A stretch of DNA of 64,000 bases, from the NCBI GenBank assembly GCA_003552125.1, contig PUON01000081.1, positions 4,417 through 68,416 of the forward strand, written 5' to 3'. Both the position numbers and the translations under genes were made by a program. Below are positions 47,306-64,000 of this stretch, one piece after another. How positions within the stretch are numbered: position 1 is the first letter of the stretch; the number at the start of each line of letters is the position of its first letter. The stretch is from Dehalococcoidia bacterium (lineage in GTDB: Bacteria > Chloroflexota > Dehalococcoidia > GIF9 > AB-539-J10). A model generated the notes under the pieces. The model was not told where the DNA came from, did no database searches, and was given only the letters and a program-made list of their open reading frames with translations.

Positions 47306-47375
47306 AGGAGAGCATCTGTCTCCAGCGCAAACCGGGCGCATCCGATTTTGAGCAGCATCGAGACTTGAAGGAACC

Positions 47376-48874: not shown

Positions 48875-48905
48875 TGTCAGAATCCAGATATGAAAGCAAA
48901 GATAA

Positions 48906-48982: not shown

Positions 48983-49031
48983 ACCGAAACGACCGCCACA
49001 AGTTTATTCTGTCGCGAGTACGCGAGTCAAG

Positions 49032-50657
49032 CTACAAAGGAAGATGTACCTGACTCCCGGGTGGCACGGTGCGAACTGCCGCTTTCATGAACTCGCGAAA
49101 GAGAGGGTGTGGTTGATCAGGCCGCGACTTGAACTCCGGATGAAACTGGCAACCCAGCATCCATGTATGCTGCTTGAGTTCTGCTATCTCGACCAGGGCA
49201 CCATCTTCGGACACTCCGCTGAAGAAGAGGCGATGCTGCAGGAGTTGGCGGAAGTCATTGTTAAACTCAAAACGATGACGATGTCGTTCATGTACCAGCT
49301 CGCATCCATAGGCGGACGATGCCCGGGTGCCGGGAACCAGGCGACACGGATAGCTGCCCAATCTCATCGTGCCACCCATACGGTCAACGCTACGCTGGTC
49401 AGGCAGAAGATCGATCACAGGGTACTGCGTCGAAGGATCAAATTCGGTGGAGTTCACACATTCTGTTCCGAAAGTGGCACGTGCAATCTCTATCACGAGC
49501 ACCTGCATGCCGAGACACAATCCGAGGTACGGTATGTTATTTACCCTCGCGTATCTTGCCGCCTGAATCATCCCTTCAATGCCACGCATTCCGAAACCAC
49601 CGGGCACCACGATTCCCTGCGCGGCGGACAGCATCGCATCCACGTTTTCGGGCGTCAAATGATCAGACTGCACCCAGAAGATCTTGAGCTTGCGATTATG
49701 AAAGAGGGCAGCATGTTTCAGCGCTTCCCTTACCGAAAGATAGGTATCTTCCACTTCGACGTACTTGCCAACCAGCGCGATGGACACAACCTCTTCAGCT
49801 TCGCGCAATCGTGACACCAGATTGTGCCACACAGCGAGGTCACAGTCAGCGTCAGGAAGCCCAAGGCCTCTGGCAATCAGTCCGCCAACTCCGGCATCAG
49901 CCAATACCAATGGCACCTCATATATGCTCTCGACGGTGGGTAACGGGACCACAGCTTCAGCAGGCACATCACAGAACAGCCCTACTTTGTCACGCAACTC
50001 TTCGGGCATCGGAAGGTCACTTCTGCACACGATAATATCCGGCTGGATACCCATGCTCCGCAATTCACGGACACTGTGCTGGGTGGGCTTGGTCTTCAGT
50101 TCTCCGGTTGAGGCAAGGTGGGGAAGGTAGGTTACGTGAACGTACATGACGTTCTGTCTGCCGACATCCTTGCGAATCTGTCTGATAGCTTCGATGAACG
50201 GCTGCCCCTCGATATCTCCAACGGTGCCGCCGATTTCGGTAATCAGCACATCAGCCCCGAGGTTATTCGCACAACTGAGGACGAGTCTCTTGATCTCATC
50301 CGTAACATGTGGCACAACCTGGATCGTGCCACCCAAGAACCGGCCCTCTCGCTCCATGTTTATGACGGAGCTATATACACGACCTGACGTCGCATTAGCC
50401 TCGCACGACAGATCCACACCAATGAAGCGCTCGTAGTGACCAAGATCAAGGTCGGTCTCAGCACCATCCTCGGTTACGTACACCTCGCCGTGCTGATATG
50501 GAGACATGGTGCCAGGGTCGACATTCAAATACGGGTCGAGCTTCTGGACAGCAACGTTGACGCCGCGGGCTTTGAGGAGCGTGCCAATGGATGCGACGGT
50601 GATTCCTTTGCCAACTGAACTGACAACACCACCTGTAACAAAAATATGCTTAGCCAT
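49032..50657 (-). CDS. pyrG: CTP synthase
   Basis: MAKHIFVTGGVVSSVGKGI... and C-terminal class I GATase (GLCLGMQ, HRHR). TATAAT (complement of 50685-50690) lies upstream; the track ORF extends to 50795. Confidence 0.92.
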   Translation of the reverse strand: MAKHIFVTGGVVSSVGKGITVASIGTLLKARGVNVAVQKLDPYLNVDPGTMSPYQHGEVYVTEDGAETDLDLGHYERFIGVDLSCEANATSGRVYSSVINMEREGRFLGGTIQVVPHVTDEIKRLVLSCANNLGADVLITEIGGTVGDIEGQPFIEAIRQIRKDVGRQNVMYVHVTYLPHLASTGELKTKPTQHSVRELRSMGIQPDIIVCRSDLPMPEELRDKVGLFCDVPAEAVVPLPTVESIYEVPLVLADAGVGGLIARGLGLPDADCDLAVWHNLVSRLREAEEVVSIALVGKYVEVEDTYLSVREALKHAALFHNRKLKIFWVQSDHLTPENVDAMLSAAQGIVVPGGFGMRGIEGMIQAARYARVNNIPYLGLCLGMQVLVIEIARATFGTECVNSTEFDPSTQYPVIDLLPDQRSVDRMGGTMRLGSYPCRLVPGTRASSAYGCELVHERHRHRFEFNNDFRQLLQHRLFFSGVSEDGALVEIAELKQHTWMLGCQFHPEFKSRPDQPHPLFREFMKAAVRTVPPGSQVHLPL

Positions 50658-50858
50658 GCTTGTGGCGGAATACCGTCCGCCCGCATTATAGAAAGGTGTA
50701 TCTACGGGTGTCAACGACAGGCGTGAAATTGCCGCTAACGCGCTCATGCCACCGCATCTAACCGGCAATGCACACGCGCCTATATTGCCGTCCAATCACC
50801 GACAGCCAACCGCATCGGCGGTTCGAGTTGATCCTCTATAACTATACGCAGAGATCTC

Positions 50859-50887
50859 TTGACAGCGCTGTGTGCCGATGCTAGACT
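50859..50887 (+). promoter_or_regulatory. putative promoter of the glutamate-synthase-like gene cluster
   Basis: TTGACA-17 nt-TAGACT, 47 nt upstream of the ferredoxin gene start. Confidence 0.45.
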
Positions 50888-50933
50888 CATACGGCAACCG
50901 GTGGCCGGTCGCCGTTTTATTAGGAAGTGAGCT

Positions 50934-51401
50934 ATGAGACGGGTATTAGTGAAGGACGATCTCTGTATAGGATGTGGCTTATGCAGGGTATTCTGCGAGG
51001 CTCACCACGCGGGAAACGACGATCCGTTGAAGTCGCTCAAGCGCCGGCTTTCACCTCCCGCAGGTGGAATACGTGTGGAGTGCAACGGAATACGAAGCAT
51101 TTCTGTGCGGTGTCGCCATTGCGAGGACGCTCCATGTATTCAAGCCTGCCTGACAGGGGCGATGTACCGCGACTATGACAGCGGACTTGTGTTGATCGAT
51201 GCCGATCGCTGCGTCGGATGCGGAACATGCACCCTCGTGTGTCCATTCGGTGCAATACGCAAAGATGAACAGACCGGTATTGCCGTCAAGTGTGACGGTT
51301 GCCTTGATCGGGATATGCCCAGATGCGTCAATGCCTGTCCCAACGATGCACTCGTGATTGAGCTTAAGGCAGCTGTTTCAACGATCGCGACACCAGCCTG
51401 A
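50934..51401 (+). CDS. multi-cluster 4Fe-4S ferredoxin
   Basis: Four Cys clusters: CIGCGLCRVFC, CRHCEDAPCIQAC, CVGCGTCTLVCP and CDGCLDRDMPRCVNACP. AGGAAG lies upstream. Confidence 0.8.
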   Translation: MRRVLVKDDLCIGCGLCRVFCEAHHAGNDDPLKSLKRRLSPPAGGIRVECNGIRSISVRCRHCEDAPCIQACLTGAMYRDYDSGLVLIDADRCVGCGTCTLVCPFGAIRKDEQTGIAVKCDGCLDRDMPRCVNACPNDALVIELKAAVSTIATPA

Positions 51402-51450
51402 GACAGATACACGCAGTGTTTCGGAACTGACCGTGCAAGGAGGATACGGA

Positions 51451-53043
51451 GTGAACCTGAGACGTCCTAATGCGAACGATGCAACGCGCACCGCCAACCG
51501 GTCCCGCGATGTGGTTCCCGTGAGCGGTCTATGCTCCCGGTGTATTGACGGGTGTACCGGCAACTGCGAGGTATTCAAGGCGAGTTTTCGCGCACGGGAA
51601 CTCATCTACCCCGGTCCGTTCGGCGAAGTTACCGCAGGTGCCGACAAAGACTATCCGGTCGACTACTCCCACCTCAACATCCAGGGCTATGCGATGGGAG
51701 CGAAGGGGCTGCCCGAGGGTGTCGATGGCAACTCGGACACCGCAACATTCCCCGCGGTCAGCACGGAAACGAGTTACGGATGGAATTCCAAGGTAAGCAT
51801 GCGCGTCCCGGTGTTCACCGGAGCCCTGGGGTCAACGGAGATTGCGAGAAAGAACTGGGACCACTTCGCGGTGGGCGCAGCGTTGAGTGGTATCACTCTC
51901 GTATGTGGAGAGAACGTCTGCGGCATTGATCCCGAACTGGAGCTGGATTCATACGGTAAGGTTCGGAGTGCTCCAGACATGGACAGACGCATCGAGACGT
52001 ACAGGAAGTACCAGGACGGCTATGGCGAGATTCTGGTGCAGGTGAATGTTGAAGACGCACGGCTGGGTGCGGCGGAGTACGTATACGCCAAACATGGACT
52101 GGAAAGCATCGAGTTGAAGTGGGGTCAGGGTGCCAAATGCATCGGCGGCGAGATCAAGGTCAACTCGCTGGAACGCGCTCTGCAATTGCAGCGGAGAGGA
52201 TATATAGTGACACCTGACCCATCTGATCCGACGAGCCAATCGGCTTTTCGCAGCGGTGCACTGAAAGAGGTCGAACGCCACAGCCGGCTTGGGTTCATAG
52301 ACGAACATGCGTTCTTGCAGGCCGTGGAGAACCTGCGCGATATTGGGTTCAAGCGAATCACGCTTAAAACCGGTGCTTACAGCCTGAGGGAACTGGCAAT
52401 GGCGATTAAGTGGGGTGCGAAGGCACACCTGGACCTGATTACTATCGATGGTGCACCGGGTGGAACCGGCATGAGTCCATGGAGGATGATGGAGGAATGG
52501 GGCATACCGAGTCTCTATCTCCACTCCGCTGCATACGAGTTCTCCGAAAGACTGTCGGCCAGGGGAGAGCGCGTACCAGACCTTGCGCTCGCAGGTGGAT
52601 TCAGCAGCGAAGATGGAATCTTCAAGGCATTAGCGCTTGGTGCGCCCTACGTCAAGGCGATATGCATGGGCCGGGCGCTCATGATACCCGGCATGGTAGG
52701 CAAGAACATAGAGAAGTGGCTCAGCGACGGTAAGTTGCCAAACACCATCAGTCAGTACGGCTCAACGCCCGAGGAGATCTTCATATGCTACGAGGAAGTG
52801 AAACACCTGGTGGGGCCTGAAGAGATGAGCCATATCCCGCTGGGAGCTATCGGGATCTATAGTTACGTACAGAAGCTGAAAGTCGGCCTGCAGCAGATCA
52901 TGGCAGGCAACCGCAATTTCAACGTTTCAACCATAAGCAGCAGCGACCTCATGGCATTGACTGAAGAGGCGGCCAGAGTGACTGGAATTCCCTATGTAAT
53001 GGATGCATACCGCGAGGATGCACTTGCGATACTCGATGGTTAG
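51451..53043 (+). CDS. glutamate synthase FMN-binding-domain (GltB domain 2)-like protein, divergent paralog 1
   Basis: Retains GQGAK and IDGAPGGTGMSP (GxGGTG) of the GltS central domain but lacks the PGxGGxLPGxKV stretch and the 3Fe-4S Cys triad. It carries instead an N-terminal CSRCIDGCTGNCE motif. GTG start 6 nt after AAGGAGG; the track ORF begins at 51358 inside the ferredoxin gene. Confidence 0.7.
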   Translation: MNLRRPNANDATRTANRSRDVVPVSGLCSRCIDGCTGNCEVFKASFRARELIYPGPFGEVTAGADKDYPVDYSHLNIQGYAMGAKGLPEGVDGNSDTATFPAVSTETSYGWNSKVSMRVPVFTGALGSTEIARKNWDHFAVGAALSGITLVCGENVCGIDPELELDSYGKVRSAPDMDRRIETYRKYQDGYGEILVQVNVEDARLGAAEYVYAKHGLESIELKWGQGAKCIGGEIKVNSLERALQLQRRGYIVTPDPSDPTSQSAFRSGALKEVERHSRLGFIDEHAFLQAVENLRDIGFKRITLKTGAYSLRELAMAIKWGAKAHLDLITIDGAPGGTGMSPWRMMEEWGIPSLYLHSAAYEFSERLSARGERVPDLALAGGFSSEDGIFKALALGAPYVKAICMGRALMIPGMVGKNIEKWLSDGKLPNTISQYGSTPEEIFICYEEVKHLVGPEEMSHIPLGAIGIYSYVQKLKVGLQQIMAGNRNFNVSTISSSDLMALTEEAARVTGIPYVMDAYREDALAILDG

Positions 53044-53073
53044 CGGGAAGAGATCGGTGAAGGAGCTGGACAG

Positions 53074-53445
53074 ATGTATCAGTACAACTGGGGTCCGCAT
53101 TTCATGGCGTCAACCGACGCCGCCCGAGTTCTCTCCGGCAGGGTACAACTGAAGGAGGAAGTGGATGAGGGATTGCTGCGGCGCGAATTGGACTTGATGG
53201 GTCTCTCCGGGCCGATAACGCGCATCATGAATCAATGGTTCATTCGCAGAATAGGTGAGAACACATGGCGTCAGTTAGCGGCATCCGACGAAAGGCCTTC
53301 TGATTTCAGAGTTATCTGGGACTCGACATCGGTGGAGAATGGTGACTATGAAGTCCTGGAACAGATGAACGTCTTCGTCAAGACAGGCAGTGAGCAGCAG
53401 GTCATCACACGAACCAACACGGTTAAGGTTGCGGTCGCCAATTAA
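53074..53445 (+). CDS. hypothetical protein (123 aa) embedded in the cluster
   Basis: ORF with GAAGGAG upstream. No motif recognised. Confidence 0.45.
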   Translation: MYQYNWGPHFMASTDAARVLSGRVQLKEEVDEGLLRRELDLMGLSGPITRIMNQWFIRRIGENTWRQLAASDERPSDFRVIWDSTSVENGDYEVLEQMNVFVKTGSEQQVITRTNTVKVAVAN

Positions 53446-53458
53446 CGGGTGGAGCACT

Positions 53459-54106
53459 ATGGATACACGTACAGTGGCAGTGATCGACTACGGCGCGGGC
53501 AACCTGAGGAGCGTACGTTCGGCCCTCTGCAGTCTCGGCTACAATGCATTGATTGTTGACTCAGCGCGCGGAGCCGCGGAGGCCCAAGCGATGATCCTTC
53601 CTGGTGTCGGCGCTGCTGCTGACACCATGCACAACCTGGTACGGAGCGGACTGGCACAGACTGTAATTGACTGGATCGCAGCGGGTCGACCGTTCCTGGG
53701 TATCTGCATGGGGATGCAGATCCTGTTCGAGTATTCCGACGAGGGGGGCGGCCAAAAGTGTCTTGGCGTGTTTCCAGGCAGGGTCGTGAAACTCCCAACC
53801 TCGCACAAAGTGCCGCACATGGGTTGGAATCAGGTGCACTACCGAAGAGATTCGGCGCTCTTTGACGGCATACCGAACGACTCAAACTTCTATTTCATAC
53901 ACAGCTATGTTGTGGAGCCAGAAGACGACGAAATGATCAAAGCTACTACAGAATACTCAGCGCAGTTCTGCAGCGTCATCAATCGCGGGGCAGTAGTTGC
54001 CGCGCAGTTCCATCCGGAAAAGAGCGGTGCGGTTGGGATGCGTTTCTATGAGAACTTCCTGTCGCTCGCTGCAGAGGGACGCTTGCGCCACGGGATATCC
54101 ACATGA
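53459..54106 (+). CDS. hisH: imidazole glycerol phosphate synthase, glutaminase subunit (class I GATase)
   Basis: VAVIDYGAGNLRSV...GVG...GICMGMQ...HMGWNQV...FHPEKS are HisH-specific motifs. Confidence 0.85.
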   Translation: MDTRTVAVIDYGAGNLRSVRSALCSLGYNALIVDSARGAAEAQAMILPGVGAAADTMHNLVRSGLAQTVIDWIAAGRPFLGICMGMQILFEYSDEGGGQKCLGVFPGRVVKLPTSHKVPHMGWNQVHYRRDSALFDGIPNDSNFYFIHSYVVEPEDDEMIKATTEYSAQFCSVINRGAVVAAQFHPEKSGAVGMRFYENFLSLAAEGRLRHGIST

Positions 54107-55446
54107 ACACTTACGAATACGTTATTGTCGGCAATTCCGCCGGCGGCCTTTCGGCCGCGAGAGAAATCCGCACCATCGACCAGTCCGGCGGCCTGTTGAT
54201 ACTGTCGGACGAGCAGTACCCTGCGTACTCACGTCCACTGATCGCAAAGCATATCTCACATACGAAGACAATTGAGGCAATGGAACTGGTCCCAAGAGAA
54301 TTCTACGTGGACAGCCATATGGAATGGTGGCCCGGAACTCGTGCAGTTCGCATCGACTACCCAGAGAGGACGGTTCTGCTGCATGATGGACGTTGCGTCC
54401 ACTGGAACAGTCTGCTATTGGCCACTGGCAGCAGTCCCATCGTGCCGCCGATTGAGGGCGTAACAAGGCAGGGAGTCCACACTTTCACTACCTATTGCGA
54501 CGCCGAATCCATCACAAGACAACTGCCGTCAGTACGACATGTTGTCGTAATTGGAGGTGGGTTCATCGGACTCAGTGCGGCGGATGCACTGCGACACAGA
54601 GAAGTTGACGTGACCATCGTGGAGATGCAGTCCAGGGTACTCAGCACAATGGTCGATGAAGAGGGATCGACACGCATTGAGGAGGCAGTCCGCGCTTCAG
54701 GAGCGGATGTCATCACAGGCAGACGAGTGGTCTCCATAAATGGTGATCACCCGGAATCATCGTCAGTGTCAAGCGTGACACTTGATGACAGGACTCGGCT
54801 CCAGTGCGAAATGGTCATACTGGCCGTGGGCGTCAGGCCACGCACTGAACTTGCGGAAGGCGTCGTGCCCATGAAGCAAGGCATCCTTGTGGACGAATTC
54901 ATGCGAACCGCCACGCCGGGCATCTATGCTTGTGGCGATGTATGCCAGACTCGTGATTTCGCGAGAGATGCAGACGCCGTGCTTCCCGTCTGGCCAAACG
55001 CGGTCGCTGGCGGCGCTGTAGCTGGCGCCACCATGGCAGGAATGCCTCGCAGCTACGAAGGTTCTACCACAATGAATGCAGTGCCATACTTCGGTCTCAG
55101 CGTGGTCTCCGCGGGCGTCGTGGAACACGACCCGGCCCTACACGACGTGTTGACCAGGCGGGATTCGACCGGATACACAAAGGTAGTACTCAAGGAAGGT
55201 GTGATCGTCGGCATGGTGTCGGTCGGCGACACGTCCCGGTGCGGTATCGTTTATCACCTCATGAAGCGCAAGGCAAATGTGGATAACTGGAAAGACATGC
55301 TCGTGCGAGAGGACTTTGGCATTCTCTCACTCCCAGATTCGTTGTGGCGAGATCAACTGACCCCCCTGGACGGGCGGCTACGCGACGAGACGGACAACGT
55401 TGCGAATGGTATAGTGAACCTGACCACAGGCGCGAAGAGATGGTGA
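54103..55446 (+). CDS. FAD-dependent pyridine nucleotide-disulfide-family oxidoreductase (NAD(P)H:acceptor reductase)
   Basis: Two Rossmann GxGxxG motifs, VIVGNSAGGLSAA (FAD) and VVVIGGGFIGLSAADAL (NAD(P)H), plus the C-terminal dimerisation region. ATGA overlap with hisH. Confidence 0.75.
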   Translation: MNTYEYVIVGNSAGGLSAAREIRTIDQSGGLLILSDEQYPAYSRPLIAKHISHTKTIEAMELVPREFYVDSHMEWWPGTRAVRIDYPERTVLLHDGRCVHWNSLLLATGSSPIVPPIEGVTRQGVHTFTTYCDAESITRQLPSVRHVVVIGGGFIGLSAADALRHREVDVTIVEMQSRVLSTMVDEEGSTRIEEAVRASGADVITGRRVVSINGDHPESSSVSSVTLDDRTRLQCEMVILAVGVRPRTELAEGVVPMKQGILVDEFMRTATPGIYACGDVCQTRDFARDADAVLPVWPNAVAGGAVAGATMAGMPRSYEGSTTMNAVPYFGLSVVSAGVVEHDPALHDVLTRRDSTGYTKVVLKEGVIVGMVSVGDTSRCGIVYHLMKRKANVDNWKDMLVREDFGILSLPDSLWRDQLTPLDGRLRDETDNVANGIVNLTTGAKRW

Positions 55447-55449
55447 TCC

Positions 55450-56109
55450 ATGAAAGATGTGACGAGACTCAATAACAGGTACGGAGACGACAAGGTCTTT
55501 GATGGATGCTCGATCTTCGGAGTCATGGACACCTCAGGTGCTCCGATGCCTGCCAATATCGCAGTTCAGGCCATCGATCTCATGCGCGACAGGGACAACG
55601 GGCTCGGTGGTGGCTTCGCTGCTTACGGACTCTACCCGGAGCACCCCAACAAATACGCGATGCATGTCATGTACACCAGCCCGGATGGAAAGCGTCAGAC
55701 AGAGGCTTACCTCGAGCAATGGTTCGATATCGACGTTTCAGAGGCCATGGACACAGATCCAACCGTTATTCAGGACAGTCCTTTGATGCAACGCTACTTC
55801 GCATCCATTCGTCGTGAACAACAGGGATCCAGAGACGAAGCCCAGCGCGTGGCGGACATCACTATGTACGTGAACTCACATATCAGCGACGCATTCATTT
55901 TTTCCGCTGGCAAGAACATGGGTGTCTTCAAAGGCGTGGGGCACCCCTACGATATCGCGCGCTTCTTTAAGCTCGAACAGTACAGCGGCTATATATGGAC
56001 CGCGCACGGCCGCTTCCCGACCAACACCCCCGGATGGTGGGGCGGTGCACATCCATTCAGTCTGCTGGACTGGACCGTAGTACACAACGGTGAGATATCG
56101 TCCTACTGA
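55450..56109 (+). CDS. class II (Ntn) glutamine amidotransferase, N-terminal portion, ending at an in-frame TGA
   Basis: CSIFGV (putative nucleophile Cys20 after a 19-aa leader), RFPTNT and VVHNGEISSY-TGA. The same reading frame continues into 56152..56598. Confidence 0.6.
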   Translation: MKDVTRLNNRYGDDKVFDGCSIFGVMDTSGAPMPANIAVQAIDLMRDRDNGLGGGFAAYGLYPEHPNKYAMHVMYTSPDGKRQTEAYLEQWFDIDVSEAMDTDPTVIQDSPLMQRYFASIRREQQGSRDEAQRVADITMYVNSHISDAFIFSAGKNMGVFKGVGHPYDIARFFKLEQYSGYIWTAHGRFPTNTPGWWGGAHPFSLLDWTVVHNGEISSY

Positions 56110-56151
56110 ATCAACCGGCGAACTCTGGAACAATACGGATACGATTGTGCA

Positions 56152-56598
56152 TTGCAGACAGACACCGAGGTCGTTACCTATGCCATGGATCTGCTTGTGC
56201 GCCGGCACGCCCTCTCCGTCGAGACTGCTGCGAGAGTACTCGCGGCGCCGTTCTGGTCCGATGCACCCCGGATTCAACCTGAGGAAGCAAAGACGATGGA
56301 GGCACTGAGGATTACCTACGGCGGCTTGCTGCTCAATGGGCCCTTCACCGTCATCATCGCTAGAGAAGGGGAAATGATAGGTTTGACCGACAGGATTCGA
56401 CTTCGCCCCCTCGTGGTCGCCTCATCGGGACCACGGGTGTACCTGTCATCAGAGGAATCGGCTATCCGACTTGTCGATCCGGAGATCGATGAGGCATGGA
56501 TACCAGTTGGTGGCCATCCGGTCGTCGCACGACGTGGACACGTCCCGACCCTTGAGGAACAATGGCCCGCAAGCGAGGTGTCTTCCGTTGCTGACTAA
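56152..56598 (+). CDS. class II glutamine amidotransferase, C-terminal portion (same frame as 55450..56109)
   Basis: ...SETDTEVV-like block [14 protein letters not shown] and [11 protein letters not shown] (DRNGLRP motif). There is no SD before the TTG 56152; the two pieces make one domain split only by TGA 56107-56109. Confidence 0.5.
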
Positions 56599-57355
56599 GC
56601 GCATCATAGCTTGCCTCGACGTGAAAGACGGACGTGTCGTCAAGGGAACCAGCTTCGAGTCGCTACGCGACTCCGGCGATCCCGTCGAGCTTGCGCGCCG
56701 CTACTACTTCGAGGGTGCAGACGAACTGGTATTTCTCGACATCACCGCCAGCAAGGAGCATCGAGCCACCATGGCCGCACTGGTGGAGCGTGTCGCTGAC
56801 GCCGTGTTCATACCGCTCACTGTTGGTGGCGGACTGAACTCGGTTGAGGACATGCGGCGACTGCTTCTCTGTGGTGCAGACAAGATCTCGTTGAACACAG
56901 CGGCAGTCAAACAACCCGAGCTTATCAGTCGAGCAGCGGAGCGCTTCGGTAGCCAGTGCGTAGTTGTCGCTATTGACGCCAAGCGCGTGCCAGAACATGA
57001 GCCGTACAGATGGCTGGTACACACGTACGGCGGGAGTGTCGCAACTTCACTCGACGCAGTACAATGGGCCGCTCAGGTAGCAGAGCTTGGTGCGGGGGAG
57101 ATATTGTTGACCAGTATGGACGCAGATGGACACCGCGCCGGATACGACATCGAACTGACGAGAGTGGTTGCCACCTCAGTTCCAATTCCGGTTATCGCAA
57201 GTGGCGGCGCTGGGTCACCGGAGGATCTCCACCGTGCGCTGACCGATGGCAAAGCTGATGCCGTGCTCGCAGCCAGTATTTTTCACTACAGCGAGTTCGC
57301 GATTACACAGACGAAGGAATACCTGCACCACAAAGGCCTGAGTATCAGGCGATAG
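56588..57355 (+). CDS. hisF: imidazole glycerol phosphate synthase, cyclase subunit
   Basis: [39 protein letters not shown]...IPLTVGGG...ASGGAGS forms the HisF (beta/alpha)8 signature. TTG start 9 nt after GCGAGG, overlapping the amidotransferase 3' end. Confidence 0.85.
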
Positions 57356-57364: not shown

Positions 57365-58867
57365 ATGAAGAGTTTCCTGCCGCCCAGGTTCATAGTTGAC
57401 CGCGATCCATCGCGCTGTATCCAGTGCAAGGTTTGCGTTAACCAGTGCAGCTTCGGAGTTCAGAGCTTCGATGAAGACGAACAGGCCCTTAAGTCACGTG
57501 AACAGAACTGCGTTGGATGCCACAGGTGCGTTGCGTTCTGCCCCACAAACGCCCTCATCATACGTCGCAATCCGCTTGATTACCGTGCAAATTTCAACTG
57601 GCGACCGGAGGTTATCGAGGACATCCTGAAGCAGGCCGAGAGCGGTGGCATGCTGCTGACGGGAATGGGCGACGACAAGAACCACACAATCTACTGGGAC
57701 CACCTGCTGCTTAACGCCAGCCAGGTAACCAATCCCTCCATCGATCCTTTGCGTGAACCTATGGAGCTCACGACCTTTCTCGGAAGAAAGCCCGACCGTC
57801 TTCAGTTCGATGAGCGTGGAAACCTGATCACCGTAATGGCGCCTCAGGTGAAGCTGGAGACACCAATTATGTTTGCCGCCATGTCCTACGGCGCAGTCAG
57901 TCTCAACGTCCATACTTCACTTGCTCGGGCTGCAACAGAGCTTGGAACACTTTGGAACACGGGAGAGGGCGGACTGCACCCCACACTCGCACGCTATGCG
58001 CCAAATACAGTTGTACAGGTGGCCTCAGGGCGTTACGGCGTGGATACTGACTACCTACGCAAGGCCCGTATCATCGAGATCAAGATAGGACAGGGTGCCA
58101 AACCTGGTATCGGTGGCCATCTCCCTGGAGAAAAAGTAACCGATGACGTCTCCCGAACACGAATGATTCCCAGCGGGACTGACGCAATCTCGCCGGCGCC
58201 TCATCACGACATCTACTCGATAGAAGACTTGCGCCAATTGATCTATGCGATTAAGGAAGCGACCAATTACGAGAAGCCGGTTTCGGTGAAGGTTGCTGCC
58301 GTGCACAACGTGGCAGCAATCGCCAGCGGGATGGTACGTGCGGGAGCAGATATGATCGTCGTTGACGGGTTGCGCGGGGCCACCGGCGCCGCACCGAAGG
58401 CTATTCGGGACAATGTCGGTATTCCTATCGAGCTCGCGCTCGCATCGGTTGACACCCGCCTGCGACAGGAAGGGATCCGCAATCAGGCTTCTGTCGTAGC
58501 TTCAGGTGGACTCCGTTGCAGTGGCGACGTCGCCAAGGCCATAGCCCTCGGTGCAGACGCGGTCTATATCGGCACCGCTGCGCTTATCGCCCTCGGCTGC
58601 CACGTGTGTCAGCAGTGTCACACAGGAAAGTGCAGTTGGGGCATATGCACCAGTGATCCGGCTCTCACGAAGCGTATCAACCCTGAAATAGGGGCACAAA
58701 GACTTGTGAATCTCGTCAGAGGCTGGAGCCTTGAGATCAAAGATATGCTGGGAGGCATGGGGGTTAACGCAGTTGAGAGTCTCAGAGGGAACCGGCTCCA
58801 TCTCAGGGGAGTGGGTTTGAGCGATACCGAACTGGACGTTCTTGGCGTAAAGATGGCGGGCGGCTGA
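57365..58867 (+). CDS. ferredoxin-fused glutamate synthase FMN-domain (GltB domain 2) protein, paralog 2
   Basis: N-terminal 2x[4Fe-4S] (CIQCKVCVNQC, CVGCHRCVAFCP). Canonical IEIKIGQGAKPGIGGHLPGEKV and VDGLRGATGAAP. Cys cluster CHVCQQCHTGKC is like the GltS 3Fe-4S site. Confidence 0.85.
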   Translation: MKSFLPPRFIVDRDPSRCIQCKVCVNQCSFGVQSFDEDEQALKSREQNCVGCHRCVAFCPTNALIIRRNPLDYRANFNWRPEVIEDILKQAESGGMLLTGMGDDKNHTIYWDHLLLNASQVTNPSIDPLREPMELTTFLGRKPDRLQFDERGNLITVMAPQVKLETPIMFAAMSYGAVSLNVHTSLARAATELGTLWNTGEGGLHPTLARYAPNTVVQVASGRYGVDTDYLRKARIIEIKIGQGAKPGIGGHLPGEKVTDDVSRTRMIPSGTDAISPAPHHDIYSIEDLRQLIYAIKEATNYEKPVSVKVAAVHNVAAIASGMVRAGADMIVVDGLRGATGAAPKAIRDNVGIPIELALASVDTRLRQEGIRNQASVVASGGLRCSGDVAKAIALGADAVYIGTAALIALGCHVCQQCHTGKCSWGICTSDPALTKRINPEIGAQRLVNLVRGWSLEIKDMLGGMGVNAVESLRGNRLHLRGVGLSDTELDVLGVKMAGG

Positions 58868-58898: not shown

Positions 58899-59633
58899 AT
58901 GGAAATCAACGCACGTTTCATGAGCTACCGCGACCTGAACGCAGCCCTGAATCAGGCTGTCGATGCTGGCACAACGCACATCACCGTGCAGAACGTCAAC
59001 GGACAACGTTACATAGGAACAAACCTTCATGGTCGTGTAACAGTGGAACTCCATGGAACACCAGGCAACGACCTTGCTGCATTCATGAATGGGCCAGCGA
59101 TCATTGTGCGCGGTAACGGACAGGACGGCGGTGGCAACACTATGAATGGCGGCGAAATAGTGATCCACGGCCACGCGGGCGATGCGCTGGGCCTCGCGGC
59201 ACGGGGTGGCAGTATACTGGTTCGCGATGATGCCGGGTACCGGGCAGGCATCCACATGAAAGAATATCAGGGGCGTGGCGCGCTCGTTGTGATCGGTGGG
59301 GGCGCGCAGGACTTCCTGGGAGAATACATGGCTGGTGGCACACTGATCGTGTTAGGATTGTCACAGCGGGGCGCCGGGTGGTCACACACCAGATTTGTCG
59401 GAACGGGGATGCATGGAGGTGCGATTTACCTGCGCGGACGCATTGACAGTCACCAGATTGGGAAGGAAGTAGGCATAGCCCCTCCTGATGACAGAGATAC
59501 GCGAATCATCCAGGAAGCAGTCGCGAAATACTCGGAACACTTCGGCACCGACCCCAAGCGAATACTTGATGCCGAGTTCGTTAAGCTGTTTCCGCTGTAT
59601 CTGCGTCCCTACGGTCGATTGTATGCCTATTAA
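58899..59633 (+). CDS. glutamate synthase C-terminal GXGXG-domain protein (GltB domain 3 / FwdC-like)
   Basis: Repeated Gly-rich beta-helix motifs (GNGQDGGGNTMNGGEIVIHG, GGGAQDFLGEYMAGGTLIVLG). GGAG lies upstream. Confidence 0.85.
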   Translation: MEINARFMSYRDLNAALNQAVDAGTTHITVQNVNGQRYIGTNLHGRVTVELHGTPGNDLAAFMNGPAIIVRGNGQDGGGNTMNGGEIVIHGHAGDALGLAARGGSILVRDDAGYRAGIHMKEYQGRGALVVIGGGAQDFLGEYMAGGTLIVLGLSQRGAGWSHTRFVGTGMHGGAIYLRGRIDSHQIGKEVGIAPPDDRDTRIIQEAVAKYSEHFGTDPKRILDAEFVKLFPLYLRPYGRLYAY

Positions 59634-59645: not shown

Positions 59646-60317
59646 GTGAGCTACAAACCGATTACGCACCTGGCACTGATACGTCCTGAACCACCGCCCT
59701 TCCCCGACTGCTACCGTGAATTGACCGAACTAGGTGCGGAGGTGCGTGAAGCACTCATCGGCGGGATTATCGAACACTGTCTAATACCCTCTCCCGCCGC
59801 CATAGTCCTGATGGCGGATTCGGCCGACCATCTTCACAAGGTTCCACCAATCATCAAGGCACTGACGGCCAGCCCTGTTCTTGCGCTCATCACTCCCGAG
59901 TTGCTTCACGCCACCTGGCCAACGGTCGGTGTGGAGGACTTCATGGTCGGCACAGGATCAGGCTCGGAGTTACGGGCACGAGCTATCCATCTGATGCGGC
60001 TACACCCGGAGAGTCGCCACCTGATCCGGCATGGAGACCTTGCTATAGATACGGCATCCTGCGAAGTGAGCGTGGGTGGACGGCTCATCGAACTCACCTT
60101 CAAGGAATACGAACTGCTGAAATTCCTGGCACACGAACCTGGCCGCGTCTTCTCACGACAGGTACTGCTGGACAGAGTATGGGGTTACGATTACTTCGGC
60201 GGCGACCGCACCGTGGATGTTCACATTCGCCGCCTTCGAAGCAAGCTTGAGGATGCAAATCATACTTTCATTGATACGGTCCGCAATATAGGGTACCGTC
60301 TGCATAGGGATAAGTGA
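59646..60317 (+). CDS. OmpR-family winged-helix transcriptional regulator with degenerate receiver-like N-terminus
   Basis: The C-terminus LTFKEYELLKFLAHEPGRVFSRQVLLDRVWGYDYFGGDRTVDVHIRRLRSKL...IDTVRNIGYRL is OmpR/PhoB-type. The N-terminal half lacks a clear DD...D...K phospho-acceptor set. GTG start 12 nt after the GXGXG gene. Confidence 0.6.
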   Translation: MSYKPITHLALIRPEPPPFPDCYRELTELGAEVREALIGGIIEHCLIPSPAAIVLMADSADHLHKVPPIIKALTASPVLALITPELLHATWPTVGVEDFMVGTGSGSELRARAIHLMRLHPESRHLIRHGDLAIDTASCEVSVGGRLIELTFKEYELLKFLAHEPGRVFSRQVLLDRVWGYDYFGGDRTVDVHIRRLRSKLEDANHTFIDTVRNIGYRLHRDK

Positions 60318-62063: not shown

Positions 62064-63407
62064 ATGGCCAAGAGAACCCGGGATGAAGCAAAGGAGTATG
62101 TGCTCAAGACAGCCAAGGAGCACGATGTCAAATTCATCAGACTCTGGTTCACGGATATACTCGGTCTTCTCAAGAGCTTCGCAATCACCGTTGAGGAGCT
62201 TGAGGGCGCTCTCGAAGACGGCATGGGATTTGATGGATCTTCAATCGAGGGCTTCTGTCGAATCGACGAGAGCGACATGATGGCACTGCCTGATCCCGAG
62301 ACCTTCCAGCTACTGCCGTGGCGACCCAAGGATCATCACTCGGTGGCCAGGATGTTCTGCGACGTGATGCGGCCCGAAGGAACGCCATTCGAGGGAGATC
62401 CCCGGTACGTGCTGAAGCGGAACCTGCAGAAAGCAGCAGACCTCGGATACACCTTCTACGTGGGTCCCGAACTGGAGTATTTCTACTTCAAGGATAAGTT
62501 TGGGACTGAGCCGCTGGACGAGGGCGGGTACTTCGACATGACGCCACTCGACCTGGCCACTGACCTGAGAAGGGAAACCGTGTTGACTCTCGAGGCAATG
62601 GGTATAGGTATCGAGTATTCACACCACGAGGTGGCTCCCAGCCAACACGAGATCGACATGCGATACACAGACGCGCTTACCATGGCTGATAACGTCATGA
62701 CTTATCGGCTGGTGGTGAAGCAGATCGCCCTGGACCGTGGCGTCCACGCTACATTCATGCCGAAGCCTGTGTTCGGCATGAATGGCAGCGGCATGCACAC
62801 GCACCAGTCCCTCTTCAAGAACGGACACAACGCGTTCTTTGATCCGAACGGACAGTACCATCTCTCGGATGCAGCGCGCTGCTACATCGCCGGCTTGCTC
62901 AAACACGCGCCTGAGTTCACGTCGATCACCAACCAGCTGGTGAACTCTTACAAGCGACTCGTACCAGGATATGAGGCACCGGTCTACCTTTCCTGGGCCC
63001 GTCGCAACCGTTCGGACCTGATCAGGGTGCCGGGCTACAAGCCAGGCAGAGAGGCTTCCACACGCGTAGAATTGCGCTCCCCCGATCCCACATGCAACCC
63101 GTACCTCGCGTTCTCGGTCATGTTGGCGGCCGGTCTGGAGGGCATCGAGAAGGGCTACGATTGTCCGGAGCCCGTCGAGGAAAACGTCTACGTTATGCCT
63201 GAGGAGGAGCGAATCGCACGCGGCATAGGGACATTGCCATCAACTCTGTATGAGGCGGTCAAACTCACCCGGGAGAGCGAGGTTGTTCGCAAAGCCTTGG
63301 GGGATCACGTGTTCAATTCGTTCGTACAGAACAAACTCATCGAGTGGGATAGCTACCGAACGCAGGTAACAGGGTACGAGCTTAATCGCTATCTACCGGT
63401 GTACTGA
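62064..63407 (+). CDS. glnA: glutamine synthetase, type I
   Basis: FTDILGLLKSF, GSSIEGF, and the ATP/glutamate-binding region PKPVFGMNGSGMHTHQS. AAGGAGG upstream. Confidence 0.92.
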   Translation: MAKRTRDEAKEYVLKTAKEHDVKFIRLWFTDILGLLKSFAITVEELEGALEDGMGFDGSSIEGFCRIDESDMMALPDPETFQLLPWRPKDHHSVARMFCDVMRPEGTPFEGDPRYVLKRNLQKAADLGYTFYVGPELEYFYFKDKFGTEPLDEGGYFDMTPLDLATDLRRETVLTLEAMGIGIEYSHHEVAPSQHEIDMRYTDALTMADNVMTYRLVVKQIALDRGVHATFMPKPVFGMNGSGMHTHQSLFKNGHNAFFDPNGQYHLSDAARCYIAGLLKHAPEFTSITNQLVNSYKRLVPGYEAPVYLSWARRNRSDLIRVPGYKPGREASTRVELRSPDPTCNPYLAFSVMLAAGLEGIEKGYDCPEPVEENVYVMPEEERIARGIGTLPSTLYEAVKLTRESEVVRKALGDHVFNSFVQNKLIEWDSYRTQVTGYELNRYLPVY

Positions 63408-63498: not shown

Positions 63499-64000
63499 TC
63501 ACACCCAGCCGCGCAGTCTCATGACTTCTACCACTCGCTCTACTGCTCGCACGTAGGCAGCCTGACGCATGTTGATGCCGTACTCACGACTCGTATTCAC
63601 AACCGAATGATATGCGGCAGTCATCTTCTTATCCAGACGCTCATGCACATCAGCCTCAGTCCACGGGTACAGGTAGAAGTTCTGCACCATTTCGAAGTAG
63701 GACACGGTAACGCCACCTGCATTGCACAGGAAGTCCGGGATCACATGCACGCCATTCTCATACAGGATGTCGTCAGCCTCTGGAGTAGTCGGCCCGTTGG
63801 CGAGTTCTGCCACGATCTTCGCGCGAACCTTTCGGGCATTGCGAGACGTAATGACACCCTCTATCGCTGCGGGAATGAGCACGTCGACATCCATTTCAAG
63901 CAGGTCGTCCCCAGAAATGAGCTCAGTGTCGGGAACTCCGCACACCGTGCTGGTGGACAGTTTGCACTCGCGTGCAGCTTCAGGATCGATGCCATCAGCA
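63499..64000 (-). CDS. gdhA: Glu/Leu/Phe/Val-family glutamate dehydrogenase, C-terminal part (5' end beyond window)
   Basis: ANGPTTPEAD...GVHVIPDFLCNAGGVTVSYFEMVQN is the GDH NAD(P)-binding-domain signature. Stop at 63499-63501. Confidence 0.8.
   Translation of the reverse strand, partial: ADGIDPEAARECKLSTSTVCGVPDTELISGDDLLEMDVDVLIPAAIEGVITSRNARKVRAKIVAELANGPTTPEADDILYENGVHVIPDFLCNAGGVTVSYFEMVQNFYLYPWTEADVHERLDKKMTAAYHSVVNTSREYGINMRQAAYVRAVERVVEVMRLRGWV

What the first reader, a model, noticed from the sequence alone, without database searches (positions are those of the whole stretch)
51451..53043. Two divergent GltB FMN-domain paralogs; paralog 1 lacks the 3Fe-4S and substrate-loop motifs and has a novel CxxCx3Cx3C N-terminal motif
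Paralog 2 (57365..58867) has the canonical GQGAKPGIGGHLPGEKV and a CxxCxxCx4C cluster site, plus an N-terminal 2x[4Fe-4S] ferredoxin domain. Paralog 1 keeps GQGAK and GxGGTG but replaces the PGxGGxLPG stretch (CIGGEIKVNS). It has no Cys triad and starts with CSRCIDGCTGNCE. This suggests sub-functionalisation: a catalytic versus a structural or alternative-substrate subunit. It may be partnered with the alternative glutaminase HisH and cyclase-like HisF.
Basis: seen in the sequence. Interest (0 to 1): 0.6.

Follow-up and report, generated by a model that had tools for sequence, protein, structure and literature searches.

The report
Stand-alone iron-sulfur glutamate-synthase-like flavoenzyme
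The odd "second GltB" is a member of an uncharacterised, extremely conserved family of iron-sulfur flavoenzymes that strict anaerobes of both domains keep among their nitrogen-assimilation genes; it most likely makes glutamate from 2-oxoglutarate without a glutaminase partner.

Summary
Gene 51451-53043 (P1, 530 aa) and gene 57365-58867 (P2) both match Pfam Glu_synthase. P2 is a canonical archaeal-type GltS FMN subunit. P1 matches weakly and only in part. It has GQGAK-CIGGEIKVNS, lacks the Cx5Cx4C 3Fe-4S site, and carries an N-terminal CxxCx3Cx3C.

The "recent sub-functionalised paralog" reading does not hold. P1 belongs to a separate family, with more than 8000 database sequences. Members are 67-86% identical across Dehalococcoidia, Nitrospirota, Planctomycetota, Omnitrophota, Clostridia, Treponema, Desulfobacterales, methanogens, Altiarchaeales, Bathyarchaeia and Asgard archaea. 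The four Cys are invariant in 446 homologs.

A profile-profile alignment places GltS Gln969, Lys972 and Arg992 on invariant Q226, K229 and R249.

Neighbours in 85 loci are nitrogen genes: NrpR (18 loci), GDH (15), GlnA, PII, split GltS, HisF/HisH and PyrG. NrpR operators sit upstream of P1 in four methanogen loci. Varied electron-input modules also flank it.

Best reading (inferred): a nitrogen-regulated, glutaminase-independent reductive aminase of 2-oxoglutarate, fed through the N-terminal cluster. I found no solved structure and no biochemical study. HisH and HisF here are bona fide imidazole glycerol phosphate synthase subunits.

The parts
51451..53043 (+). P1: 530-aa stand-alone GltS-FMN-domain-like Fe-S flavoprotein, 'C-type' (KWGQGAKCIGGEI) member of the family
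   Evidence: ORF. Pfam PF01645 partial match, 57 bits; no NCBIfam hit. Homologs 77-91% identical. AF2 model pLDDT 84 shows a TIM barrel. Foldseek top hit is 1OFD GltS.
51437..51443 (+). Shine-Dalgarno AAGGAGG, 7 nt upstream of the GTG start at 51451
   Evidence: Sequence read. The 530-aa length matches the homologs.
51532..51570 (+). Codons for C28-x2-C31-x3-C35-x3-C39-E40, the putative Fe-S cluster site
   Evidence: All four Cys are 100% conserved in 446 homologs; E40 is E or D. The AF2 model has low confidence here, about 50 pLDDT, as expected for a cofactor-dependent loop.
52117..52152 (+). K223-WGQGAKCIGGE-234, counterpart of GltS KxxQGAKPGEGGQ. Q226 aligns to Gln969, K229 to Lys972 and E234 to Gln978.
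   Evidence: hhalign. Synechocystis numbering verified. Conservation.
52195..52197 (+). R249, aligned to GltS Arg992; a candidate binder of the 2-oxoglutarate carboxylate
   Evidence: hhalign and the order of predicted secondary-structure elements. R in 322 of 326 homologs of the main and D/N clades, but M or K in the Firmicutes sister clade. BLASTP places the gap differently.
52273..52287 (+). E275-R-H-S-R279, a family-specific charged motif that replaces GltS PHHD
   Evidence: Invariant in the main and D/N clades; KIGK in the sister clade.
52447..52479 (+). D333-GAPGGTGMSP-343, the FMN phosphate-binding loop (GltS DGxxGGTGA(A/S)P)
52591..52644 (+). A381-GGFSSEDGIFKALALGAP, second FMN-binding motif (GltS xGGLRxGxDVxxAxxLGA)
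50934..51401 (+). 155-aa DmsB/HydN-type polyferredoxin directly upstream of P1; four Cys motifs, so probably four clusters. Candidate electron wire.
   Evidence: Fer4_11, 72 bits. Best NCBIfam matches are DmsB, the AegA N-terminus and the PadI N-terminus, all below cutoff. Adjacent to P1 in L002-L004 and L009.
53074..53445 (+). 123-aa protein with no family match, directly downstream of P1
   Evidence: No Pfam or NCBIfam hit. Found next to or near P1 in 6 other loci.
53459..54106 (+). HisH, the glutaminase subunit of imidazole glycerol phosphate synthase
   Evidence: TIGR01855, 232 bits against a cutoff of 105. The start is inferred from the 215-aa ortholog in L002.
54103..55446 (+). FAD/NAD(P)H pyridine-nucleotide-disulfide-family reductase (PadH/NirB-N/rubredoxin-reductase-like). 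Candidate electron-input flavoprotein.
   Evidence: Pyr_redox_2, 193 bits, plus Rubredoxin_C. PadH model 291 bits, below its cutoff of 475. Lies next to P1 or the GltS genes in L005, L009, L060 and L084.
55450..56598 (+). Class-II glutaminase subunit of the split GltS, interrupted by an in-frame TGA at 56107-56109
   Evidence: L002 has GGA (Gly) at that codon, and the gene there is one 382-aa ORF.
56588..57355 (+). HisF, the cyclase subunit of imidazole glycerol phosphate synthase
   Evidence: TIGR00735, 373 bits against a cutoff of 294. The start is inferred from the 255-aa ortholog in L002.
57365..58867 (+). P2: canonical archaeal-type GltS synthase subunit, with a 2x[4Fe-4S] ferredoxin domain plus the FMN domain and Cx5Cx4C
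   Evidence: PF01645 467 bits. Matches GltS chains in the PDB at E 5e-68. Invariant C412, C418 and C423.
58899..59633 (+). GXGXG subunit of the split GltS
   Evidence: PF01493, 99 bits.
59646..60317 (+). OmpR-type winged-helix regulator with no detectable receiver domain; possible nitrogen regulator
   Evidence: Trans_reg_C is the only hit. Relatives lie near P1 in 19 other loci.
62064..63407 (+). Glutamine synthetase GlnA
   Evidence: ORF. The ortholog in L002 carries Gln-synt_N and Gln-synt_C.
63499..63945 (-). Glutamate dehydrogenase, C-terminal part; the gene runs off the end of the window
   Evidence: ELFV_dehydrog, 171 bits. GDH neighbours P1 in 15 other loci.

Best explanation
P1 is not a decayed or recently sub-functionalised copy of GltB. 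It represents a separate, ancient and very strongly conserved family of stand-alone enzymes.

Architecture. P1 is an FMN (beta/alpha)8 barrel of the glutamate-synthase synthase-domain lineage. The C-terminal Cx5Cx4C [3Fe-4S] site is gone. An N-terminal Cys4 motif (CxxCx3Cx3C) takes its place and presumably binds a [4Fe-4S] or [3Fe-4S] cluster. The part of loop 4 that in GltS couples to the glutaminase has been rebuilt.

Most likely mechanism (inferred, not shown). Electrons come from low-potential donors. In this genome the candidate route is NAD(P)H -> FAD reductase (54103-55446) -> four-cluster ferredoxin (50934-51401). In other genomes the candidates are NuoEF-type modules or ferredoxin itself. 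Electrons enter through the N-terminal cluster and reduce FMN. 2-Oxoglutarate is held by K229 and R249 and condenses with free ammonia. The 2-iminoglutarate is then reduced to L-glutamate. This would be a glutaminase-independent, ammonia-dependent glutamate synthase.

Regulation. The gene belongs to the nitrogen regulon (NrpR, OmpR-type regulator, PII) and works beside GS, GDH and the canonical split GltS.
For: Shown:
- Family membership and fold. All 68 diverse members match PF01645. hhalign against canonical GltB gives 98.4% probability. The AF2 TIM barrel has pLDDT 84. The Foldseek top hit is Synechocystis GltS with 2-oxoglutarate bound.
- Active-site residues. The FMN motifs are invariant, as are Q226, K229 and R249, which align to Gln969, Lys972 and Arg992. 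A sister clade in a non-nitrogen context (NifX/Mrp-like genes) has lost R249, E234 and the RHSR motif. This marks those residues as substrate-specificity determinants.
- Cys motif. The four Cys are invariant in 446 homologs.
- Purifying selection. Homologs are 67-86% identical across at least 10 phyla in both domains.
- Nitrogen context in 85 loci. NrpR is directly adjacent in 18, GDH is nearby in 15, and GlnA, PII, split GltS, PyrG and CarB also recur. Archaeoglobus profundus has P1 next to glnA. Desulfallas has GlnA, an ANTAR regulator, GDH and P1 together.
- NrpR operators. GGAAN6TTCC lies within 375 nt upstream of P1 in Methanoperedens, Methanoculleus and two Methanothrix loci. That accounts for 5 of the 9 exact hits in 168 kb of archaeal loci. 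The operator consensus is taken from 10.1101/2024.03.05.583561, and 2-oxoglutarate release of NrpR from PMC11957540.
- Electron-input modules beside P1. These are Fd155 plus the PadH-like reductase, and NuoE/F/G-like genes in L019 and L053.
- P1 never replaces GltB in the GAT2-GltB-GXGXG triad; wherever those genes are nearby, a canonical GltB is present as well.
Against: - No biochemical data exist for any family member; seven literature searches found none.
- The R249 to Arg992 equivalence depends on the alignment. BLASTP places the gap differently.
- GltS Gln978 is Glu in P1. The extra invariant charged motif ERHSR could bind a different or larger anionic substrate.
- A PPDK_N (ATP-grasp) protein is a frequent neighbour (14-15 loci), and the model does not explain it.
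- An ammonia-dependent enzyme would look redundant with the GDH that often sits beside it.
Confidence: 0.42

Rival explanations
1. P1 is a nitrogen-regulated Fe-S flavoenzyme that acts on a different substrate. It could reduce another 2-oxo or imino acid. It could oxidatively deaminate an amino acid or amine to scavenge nitrogen, as the FMN/[4Fe-4S] amine dehydrogenases do. It could act on a phosphorylated intermediate made by the neighbouring PPDK_N (ATP-grasp) protein.
For: - Gln978 is replaced by Glu234, and there is an extra invariant ERHSR motif and a 14-residue insertion in loop 4.
- A PPDK_N protein is adjacent in 14-15 loci, often overlapping the P1 start.
- GDH is often adjacent, which would make a second glutamate-forming enzyme partly redundant.
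Against: - The QGAK Lys and the Arg at the Arg992 position are invariant exactly in the clades with nitrogen and glutamate context, and lost in the clade without it.
- Neighbours point to the 2-oxoglutarate/glutamate/glutamine node rather than to amine catabolism.
- NrpR senses 2-oxoglutarate (PMC11957540).
Confidence: 0.3
2. P1 is an alternative synthase subunit of the split glutamate synthase. It would dock onto the same glutaminase (GAT2) and GXGXG subunits as P2, with Fd155 playing the part of P2's fused ferredoxin domain. It would be used with another electron donor or under other nitrogen conditions.
For: - P1 lies in one gene string with GAT2, GltB and GXGXG here and in about 10 other loci.
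- Fd155 plus P1 resembles P2's ferredoxin-plus-FMN architecture split into two genes.
Against: - Most P1 loci have no GAT2 or GXGXG within 8 kb. Where those genes are present, a canonical GltB is always present too.
- The loop-4 stretch PGxGGxLPG...YSIE(1013), which in GltS contacts the glutaminase and its ammonia tunnel (stated from my own knowledge), is replaced.
Confidence: 0.12
3. One reading: P1 is a sub-functionalised or structural paralog that teams up with HisH as an alternative glutaminase and with HisF.
For: HisF (14 loci) and HisH (10 loci) recur near P1 in at least four lineages: Dehalococcoidia, Methanothrix, Syntrophales and Omnitrophota. In Methanothrix, hisH is transcribed divergently from P1 and shares the intergenic region that carries the NrpR operators.
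Against: - HisH and HisF score well above the equivalog cutoffs for imidazole glycerol phosphate synthase, and they partner with each other.
- Most P1 loci have no his gene nearby.
- P1 keeps every catalytic-looking motif under extreme conservation, so it is not a structural subunit.
- P1 and P2 are about 25% identical and belong to families that separated long ago.
Confidence: 0.06

Closest known systems
Synthase (FMN) domain of glutamate synthase: Synechocystis Fd-GltS (1OFD/1LLW) and Azospirillum GltS alpha subunit (1EA0)
   Same: - P1 matches Pfam PF01645, and hhalign gives 98.4% probability.
- It is an FMN TIM barrel.
- It shares the QGAK motif and the GGTG(A/M)SP and xGG...LGA FMN motifs.
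- Gln969, Lys972 and Arg992 align to invariant Q226, K229 and R249.
   Different: - P1 is a free 530-aa protein with no glutaminase, central or GXGXG domains.
- It has no Cx5Cx4C 3Fe-4S site and carries an N-terminal CxxCx3Cx3C instead.
- The loop-4 PGxGGxLPG...E1013 segment is replaced and 14 residues longer.
[quoted passage not shown] P2 in this window is of this type.
   Same: Both are separate-subunit designs found in anaerobes and archaea. No GltD small subunit is encoded nearby. Electrons are fed through ferredoxin-type clusters.
   Different: P2-type subunits carry a fused 2x[4Fe-4S] ferredoxin domain and the canonical loop 4 and 3Fe-4S Cys. P1 has none of these and is not tied to GAT2 or GXGXG in most genomes.
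FMN/[4Fe-4S] TIM-barrel flavoenzymes of the Old Yellow Enzyme lineage: 2,4-dienoyl-CoA reductase, trimethylamine and histamine dehydrogenase, 2-naphthoyl-CoA reductase
   Same: Both are FMN barrels with one cubane cluster wired to the flavin. As far as I recall, E. coli DCR uses CxxCx3Cx11C, which shares the first CxxCx3C spacing with P1.
Type-2 IPP isomerase, alpha-hydroxy-acid oxidases/dehydrogenases, IMPDH/GMPR
   Different: They have no Fe-S motif. Sequence matches are weak and sporadic: FMN_dh in 11 and IMPDH in 9 of 68 members. The QGAK and ERHSR signatures are absent.
N-methylglutamate synthase subunit MgsC (GltB-like FMN subunit of methylotrophs; mentioned in PMC6237917)
   Same: It is a GltB-FMN-domain homolog encoded as a separate protein and used in nitrogen metabolism.
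   Different: As far as I know, MgsC works with GAT2-like and GXGXG-like subunits and keeps canonical GltB motifs. P1 stands alone with an N-terminal Cys4 motif. I did not compare the two sequences directly.

Membership tests
Glutamate synthase FMN/synthase-domain family (Pfam PF01645) | Match to the family HMM above the gathering score | tested here: met
   57 bits against 20.4, but only profile positions 188-302 of 369. All 68 diverse homologs match.
Glutamate synthase FMN/synthase-domain family (Pfam PF01645) | (beta/alpha)8 FMN barrel with the GGTGxSP and xGG...LGA phosphate-binding motifs | tested here: met
Canonical GltS synthase site | Gln969, Lys972 and Arg992 (Synechocystis numbering). 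Their role as 2-oxoglutarate/2-iminoglutarate site residues is from my own knowledge; the numbering was verified. | tested here: met
   hhalign puts them on Q226, K229 and R249, which are invariant in the main and D/N clades. The Arg equivalence is contradicted by the BLASTP gap placement, so this is provisional.
Canonical GltS synthase site | Loop-4 PGxGGQLPG segment with Gln978, and the Ser1011/Glu1013 glutaminase-coupling residues | tested here: not met
   P1 has CIGGEIKVN, with Glu234 at the Gln978 position. YSIE is replaced by FIDEH after a 14-residue insertion.
Canonical GltS synthase site | [3Fe-4S] ligands Cx5Cx4C after the last barrel strand | tested here: not met
   There is no Cys in the aligned region (MGRALMIPGMVGKNIEKW). 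The family's only universally conserved Cys are C28, C31, C35 and C39.
Glutamine-dependent glutamate synthase holoenzyme | Class-II glutaminase plus GXGXG (and central) domains, fused or as obligate partner subunits | tested here: inconclusive
   These genes are present in the window, but together with their own GltB (P2). They are absent within 8 kb in most of the 85 P1 loci. Whole-genome presence could not be tested.
Archaeal-type GltS FMN subunit (ferredoxin domain plus FMN domain, about 500 aa) | N-terminal 2x[4Fe-4S] ferredoxin domain (two CxxCxxCxxxCP motifs) | tested here: not met
   P1 has no Fer4 Pfam hit, while P2 has one. The P1 motif is a single CxxCx3Cx3C.
NrpR nitrogen regulon | NrpR operator GGAAN6TTCC in the promoter region, or an adjacent nrpR gene | tested here: inconclusive
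   For the family this is met: operators lie upstream of P1 in 4 methanogen loci, and nrpR is adjacent in 18 loci. For this window it is not met: there is no operator near P1 and no nrpR in the cluster. An OmpR-type regulator is present instead.
Fe-S flavoprotein | Actual binding of FMN and an Fe-S cluster | not testable with these tools
   Inferred only from the conserved motifs.

The most novel reading that the evidence does not exclude
The P1 family is a third, ATP-independent route of ammonia assimilation. It would be a ferredoxin- or Fe-S-fed, glutaminase-less glutamate synthase. Energy-limited strict anaerobes (methanogens, syntrophs, Dehalococcoidia, sulfate reducers, Asgard and Bathyarchaeia) would switch it on under nitrogen limitation via NrpR. 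The low potential of their electron carriers, rather than ATP, would pull ammonia into glutamate. Paired with the adjacent NAD(P)-GDH, it could also act as a glutamate-cycling ferredoxin:NAD(P)+ oxidoreductase.
Probability: 0.3. Interest if true: 0.85.

Novelty: new variant of a known kind. Interest (0 to 1): 0.62.

Why it matters
Textbook ammonia assimilation has two routes: GDH, and GS with GOGAT. Archaeal and anaerobic GOGATs are poorly understood. No small subunit has been identified for the M. maripaludis enzyme, for example (10.1101/2024.03.05.583561).

Here is a protein family more conserved between Bacteria and Archaea (about 70% identity) than most housekeeping enzymes. It sits beside nrpR, glnA, gdh and PII in many phyla. 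Databases name it only 'FMN-binding glutamate synthase family protein', and I found no structure and no biochemistry for it.

If it is a glutaminase-independent, low-potential glutamate synthase, three things follow. Nitrogen budgets and metabolic models for methanogens, Dehalococcoidia and subsurface anaerobes would change. Why these organisms carry 'two GltBs' would be explained. And there would be a new design for wiring an Fe-S cluster to a GltS-type flavin.

If it acts on another substrate, it is still a major unassigned member of the nitrogen regulon.

Tried and rejected
- **PDB by sequence.** phmmer of P1 found nothing relevant. The family profile found GltS only at E 0.012, behind de-novo TIM barrels.
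- **First AF2 run.** A shallow alignment of 35 sequences at about 80% identity gave pLDDT 59 and no N-terminus. I replaced it with a 68-sequence, three-clade alignment.
- **Model coordinates.** They are not exposed to scripts. The Cys4-to-FMN distance and the pocket geometry could therefore not be measured.
- **Pattern search with the 13-sequence alignment.** I redid it with 7 sequences.
- **Exact look-up of the window protein.** It is not on record.
- **Literature.** Seven searches for the family, NrpR targets, ammonia-dependent or archaeal GltS and active-site residues found no paper on this family. The 'GOGAT-like' genes of Calderihabitans in PMC7306483 are a GS-like gene followed by genes for GltB domains 1 and 2. 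I did not establish that this is the same gene as the family member P0419.
- **2-Oxoglutarate:ferredoxin oxidoreductase as a conserved neighbour.** I considered this and rejected it. The enzyme near P1 in L001 scores as PorABCD-like.
- **'Isocitrate dehydrogenase next to P1' in A. profundus.** I considered this and downgraded it. The gene scores as the isopropylmalate/homoisocitrate dehydrogenase subfamily.
- **NrpR operator upstream of P1 in this window.** I looked and found none.
- **The TGA in the GAT2 gene as recoding.** I considered this. The ortholog has GGA (Gly), and nothing suggests selenocysteine, so I treat it as a nonsense mutation or a sequencing error.
Full report
**1. What is in the window**

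Positions 45.5-64 kb hold one + strand string of glutamine and glutamate genes. In order:
- GatC, GatA, then TrpRS and PyrG on the - strand.
- A 155-aa four-motif polyferredoxin (50934-51401).
- P1 (51451-53043).
- A 123-aa protein with no family match.
- HisH.
- A PadH/NirB-N-like FAD reductase.
- The class-II glutaminase subunit of a split GltS.
- HisF.
- P2 (57365-58867).
- The GXGXG subunit.
- An OmpR-type regulator.
- GatB, GlnA and, on the - strand, GDH.

The closest relative (91% identical, L002-L004) has the same order.

**2.

P2 is a textbook archaeal-type synthase subunit:
- It matches PF01645 at 467 bits over the whole profile.
- It has an N-terminal 2x[4Fe-4S] domain.
- It carries GQGAKPGIGGHLPGEKV.
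- It has Cys at Cx5Cx4C spacing, invariant in its relatives.
- It matches GltS chains in the PDB at E 5e-68.

P1 matches PF01645 at only 57 bits, over profile positions 188-302. It has no NCBIfam hit and no PDB hit by phmmer. P1 and P2 share 28% identity over 195 residues. The homology is still real: hhalign of the two families gives 98.4% probability over 378 columns.

P1 has KWGQGAKCIGGEIKVNS and DGAPGGTGMSP. It has no Cys at the GltS cluster site. It carries C28-x2-C31-x3-C35-x3-C39-E40.

The GTG at 51451 is the real start. AAGGAGG lies 7 nt upstream, and the homologs are 530 aa.

**3. P1 is a family of its own**

- The word-index search was saturated, with 8000 hits. The best 120 are 77-91% identical.
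- An exhaustive phmmer search of 1.84 billion cluster representatives found only 1129 hits at E<=1e-3 and about a dozen full-length 50%-identity clusters. The family is therefore compact and well separated from the canonical GltB family.
- In GTDB species representatives, more than 588 loci encode it.
- The best 80 are 67-86% identical to the window protein. They come from Dehalococcoidia, Nitrospirota, Planctomycetota, Omnitrophota, Oscillospiraceae, Treponema, Desulfobacterales, Syntrophales, Methanothrix, Methanoculleus, Methanoperedens, Altiarchaeales, Bathyarchaeia and an Asgard archaeon.
- Cultured carriers include Archaeoglobus profundus, Methanocaldococcus fervens, Desulfallas thermosapovorans, Calderihabitans maritimus and Caldicoprobacter algeriensis.

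About 70% identity between domains implies very strong constraint, probably combined with horizontal transfer. It rules out a 'recent paralog drifting after duplication'.

**4. Anatomy**

A 68-sequence, three-clade alignment gave a confident AF2 model (pLDDT 84, pTM 0.87). It shows a (beta/alpha)8 barrel with a helical C-terminal extension. The Cys-motif region has low confidence.

Fold searches gave two pictures:
- Foldseek ranks Synechocystis GltS first (1OFD, E 2e-9), just ahead of alpha-hydroxy-acid oxidases.

So P1 is a deep branch of the FMN-barrel superfamily whose sequence signature is GltS-like. No member has a solved structure.

The hhalign register gives this mapping (Synechocystis numbering checked):

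| P1 | Synechocystis GltS |
|---|---|
| Q226 | Gln969 |
| K229 | Lys972 |
| E234 | Gln978 |
| R249 | Arg992 |
| ERHSR 275-279 | PHHD |

A 14-residue insertion lies before the helix that carries Ser1011 and Glu1013 in GltS.

The order of predicted secondary-structure elements agrees with this register: loop, helix ending in RR, strand. The pairwise BLASTP alignment places the gap elsewhere, so the Arg equivalence is provisional. The catalytic roles of the GltS residues are from my own knowledge of the GltS structural literature.

Conservation in 446 homologs:
- The four Cys are 100% conserved in every clade.
- GST127-129, E234, R249 and R276-H-S-R279 are essentially invariant in the main ('C-type') clade and in the 'D/N-type' clade.
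- A Firmicutes sister clade (about 40% identical) has lost them. GST is deleted, E234 becomes M, R249 becomes M or K, and RHSR becomes KIGK.
- That sister clade sits among NifX-like and Mrp/MinD-Fer4 genes instead of nitrogen genes.

Those residues therefore behave as substrate-specificity determinants tied to the nitrogen context.

**5. Genomic context**

I called and clustered ORFs in 84 related loci plus the window. I annotated the recurrent clusters with Pfam and NCBIfam.

| Neighbour of P1 | Loci |
|---|---|
| NrpR (PF01995 plus wHTH), usually directly adjacent | 18 |
| OmpR-type regulators | 20 |
| Glutamate dehydrogenase | 15, plus the window |
| PPDK_N (ATP-grasp) protein of 420-990 aa, often overlapping the P1 start | 14 |
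| HisF | 14 |
| HisH | 10 |
| Split or large GltS genes | 10-12 |
| GlnA | 8 |
| PadH-like reductase | 8 |
| PII | 6 |
| PyrG | 6 |
| Fd155 | 5 |
| CarB | 4 |
| NuoE/F/G-like genes directly upstream | L019, L053 |

These counts include the window wherever it carries the gene.

Other contexts:
- A. profundus has NpdG, then P1, then GlnA.
- Desulfallas has GlnA, an ANTAR regulator, GDH, IclR, P1, IclR and a PPDK_N protein.

NrpR operators. The consensus GGAAN6TTCC is quoted in 10.1101/2024.03.05.583561. It lies upstream of P1 at these positions:
- -116 in Methanoperedens.
- -35 in Methanoculleus.
- -275 in one Methanothrix locus.
- -375 and -180 in a second Methanothrix locus.

These are 5 of only 9 exact occurrences in 168 kb of archaeal loci. 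The expected frequency is about 1% per 300-nt window. NrpR releases DNA when 2-oxoglutarate rises under nitrogen limitation (PMC11957540).

In this window there is no such operator. An OmpR-type regulator without a recognisable receiver domain is present instead.

Two further points bear on the mechanism:
- P1 never substitutes for GltB in a GAT2-GltB-GXGXG triad.
- In four loci a C-type and a D/N-type P1 lie in tandem, 50-58% identical.

**6. Interpretation**

Shown:
- P1 is an intact, strongly constrained FMN-barrel protein of the GltS lineage with a relocated Cys4 metal site.
- It belongs to a pan-anaerobe family embedded in nitrogen-assimilation loci.
- In methanogens it sits behind NrpR operators.

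Inferred:
- The Cys4 motif binds an Fe-S cluster that replaces the GltS 3Fe-4S centre as the electron gate to FMN.
- Electrons come from interchangeable modules. Here that would be the FAD reductase plus the four-cluster ferredoxin, a split analogue of the GltS beta subunit.
- The substrate pocket still takes 2-oxoglutarate via K229 and R249.
- The glutaminase-coupling part of loop 4 is replaced, and most loci lack a glutaminase. Ammonia would therefore come from solution, making P1 an ammonia-dependent glutamate synthase.

I put about 0.4 on that specific reaction and about 0.9 on the classification. The main rival (0.3) is a different substrate. The reasons are the Gln978-to-Glu change, the extra ERHSR motif, the unexplained ATP-grasp neighbour and the apparent redundancy with GDH. 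An alternative-synthase-subunit role (0.12) and the HisH/HisF partnership (0.06) are less likely, for the reasons given under the rivals.

**7. Comparison with the known, and novelty**

P1 meets the family-level tests for PF01645 and the FMN barrel. It fails two defining features of a canonical GltS synthase site: the loop-4 PGxGGxLPG/E1013 segment and the Cx5Cx4C cluster. It also fails the ferredoxin-domain test for the archaeal-type subunit.

It should therefore not be annotated 'glutamate synthase subunit' by transfer. It is a new variant of a known kind: a stand-alone GltS-like Fe-S flavoenzyme. Sequence databases hold it under a generic name, and seven literature searches found no functional study.

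**8. Side observation with consequences**

The glutaminase gene of the canonical split GltS carries an in-frame TGA at 56107-56109. The ortholog has GGA (Gly) there, in the conserved HNGEISSYGIN motif. If the stop is real, the canonical GOGAT is broken in this organism, and glutamate must come from P1 and/or GDH. It may equally be a sequencing error.

Noticed in passing
window 56107-56109 (within 55450-56598, + strand): There is an in-frame TGA in the class-II glutaminase subunit of the split glutamate synthase. The 91%-identical relative L002 has GGA (Gly220 of the conserved HNGEISSYGIN motif), and its gene is one 382-aa ORF. This is either a nonsense mutation that inactivates the canonical GOGAT or a sequencing error.
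   Followed up: partly
window 45491-64000: Almost every gene in this 18-kb stretch uses or makes glutamine or glutamate: GatC, GatA, PyrG, HisH, the GltS glutaminase, HisF, GltB, GXGXG, GatB, GlnA and GDH. It is an unusually dense amidotransferase and nitrogen 'supercluster'. HisH and HisF are interleaved between the GltS subunit genes and lie apart from any other his gene.
   Followed up: partly
window 59646-60317 (+): This OmpR-type winged-helix regulator (Trans_reg_C, residues 146-219) has no detectable receiver-domain Pfam match. It lies between the GltS genes and gatB/glnA. Related regulators are near P1 in 19 other loci. It may be an orphan nitrogen regulator.
   Followed up: no
window 53074-53445 (+): This 123-aa ORF lies directly downstream of P1 and has no Pfam or NCBIfam match. 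It is conserved next to or near P1 in 6 other loci (L002-L005, L007, L076). It may be a small partner subunit.
   Followed up: no
L057 3552; L065 7963; L068 56; L078 6538 and 6733: NrpR operator consensus GGAAN6TTCC lies 35-375 nt upstream of the P1 homolog in Methanoperedens, Methanoculleus and two Methanothrix loci. L078 has two operators. In L078 the upstream gene is the divergently transcribed hisH-hisF pair.
   Followed up: yes
L022 8001-11258; L030 8001-11258; L036 410-3800; L053 5997-9590: These loci carry tandem pairs of two P1 subtypes, 50-58% identical. One is 'C-type' (KWGQGAKCIGGEI, as in the window) and one is 'D/N-type' (KWGQGAK[DN]IGGEV). Both keep the ERHSR motif. All but the truncated second copy in L030 also keep the Cys4 motif. 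They occur in Nitrospirota and Altiarchaeales and could be a heteromer or isozymes.
   Followed up: partly
e.g. L076 2650-5262; L009, L013, L018, L031, L089 10472-13063: A large protein with a PPDK_N (PEP-synthase-type ATP-grasp) domain and no other recognisable domain is a recurrent neighbour of P1. In several loci it lies directly upstream and overlaps the P1 start. It occurs in Dehalococcoidia, Nitrospirota, Desulfobacterales, Syntrophales and Desulfallas. Its function is unknown.
   Followed up: partly
L088 4691-9940 (Sedimentibacter sp. MB31-C6): The Firmicutes sister clade of P1 (516 aa) keeps the Cys4 motif but has lost R249, E234, GST and RHSR. It sits in a cluster of DUF134, NifX-like (Nitro_FeMo-Co) and three Mrp/MinD-type ATPase genes (CbiA/ParA families), two of which carry Fer4 domains. 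This is a different and equally uncharacterised system.
   Followed up: partly
L019 and L053, genes directly upstream of P1; L001 3271-6186: NuoE-, NuoF- and NuoG/HoxU-like genes precede P1 directly in L019 and L053. This is the NADH-flavin/Fe-S module typical of bifurcating or NADH-linked complexes. In L001 they lie about 4 kb upstream, after PorABCD-like genes. They are an alternative electron-input module to the ferredoxin plus FAD-reductase pair of the window.
   Followed up: partly
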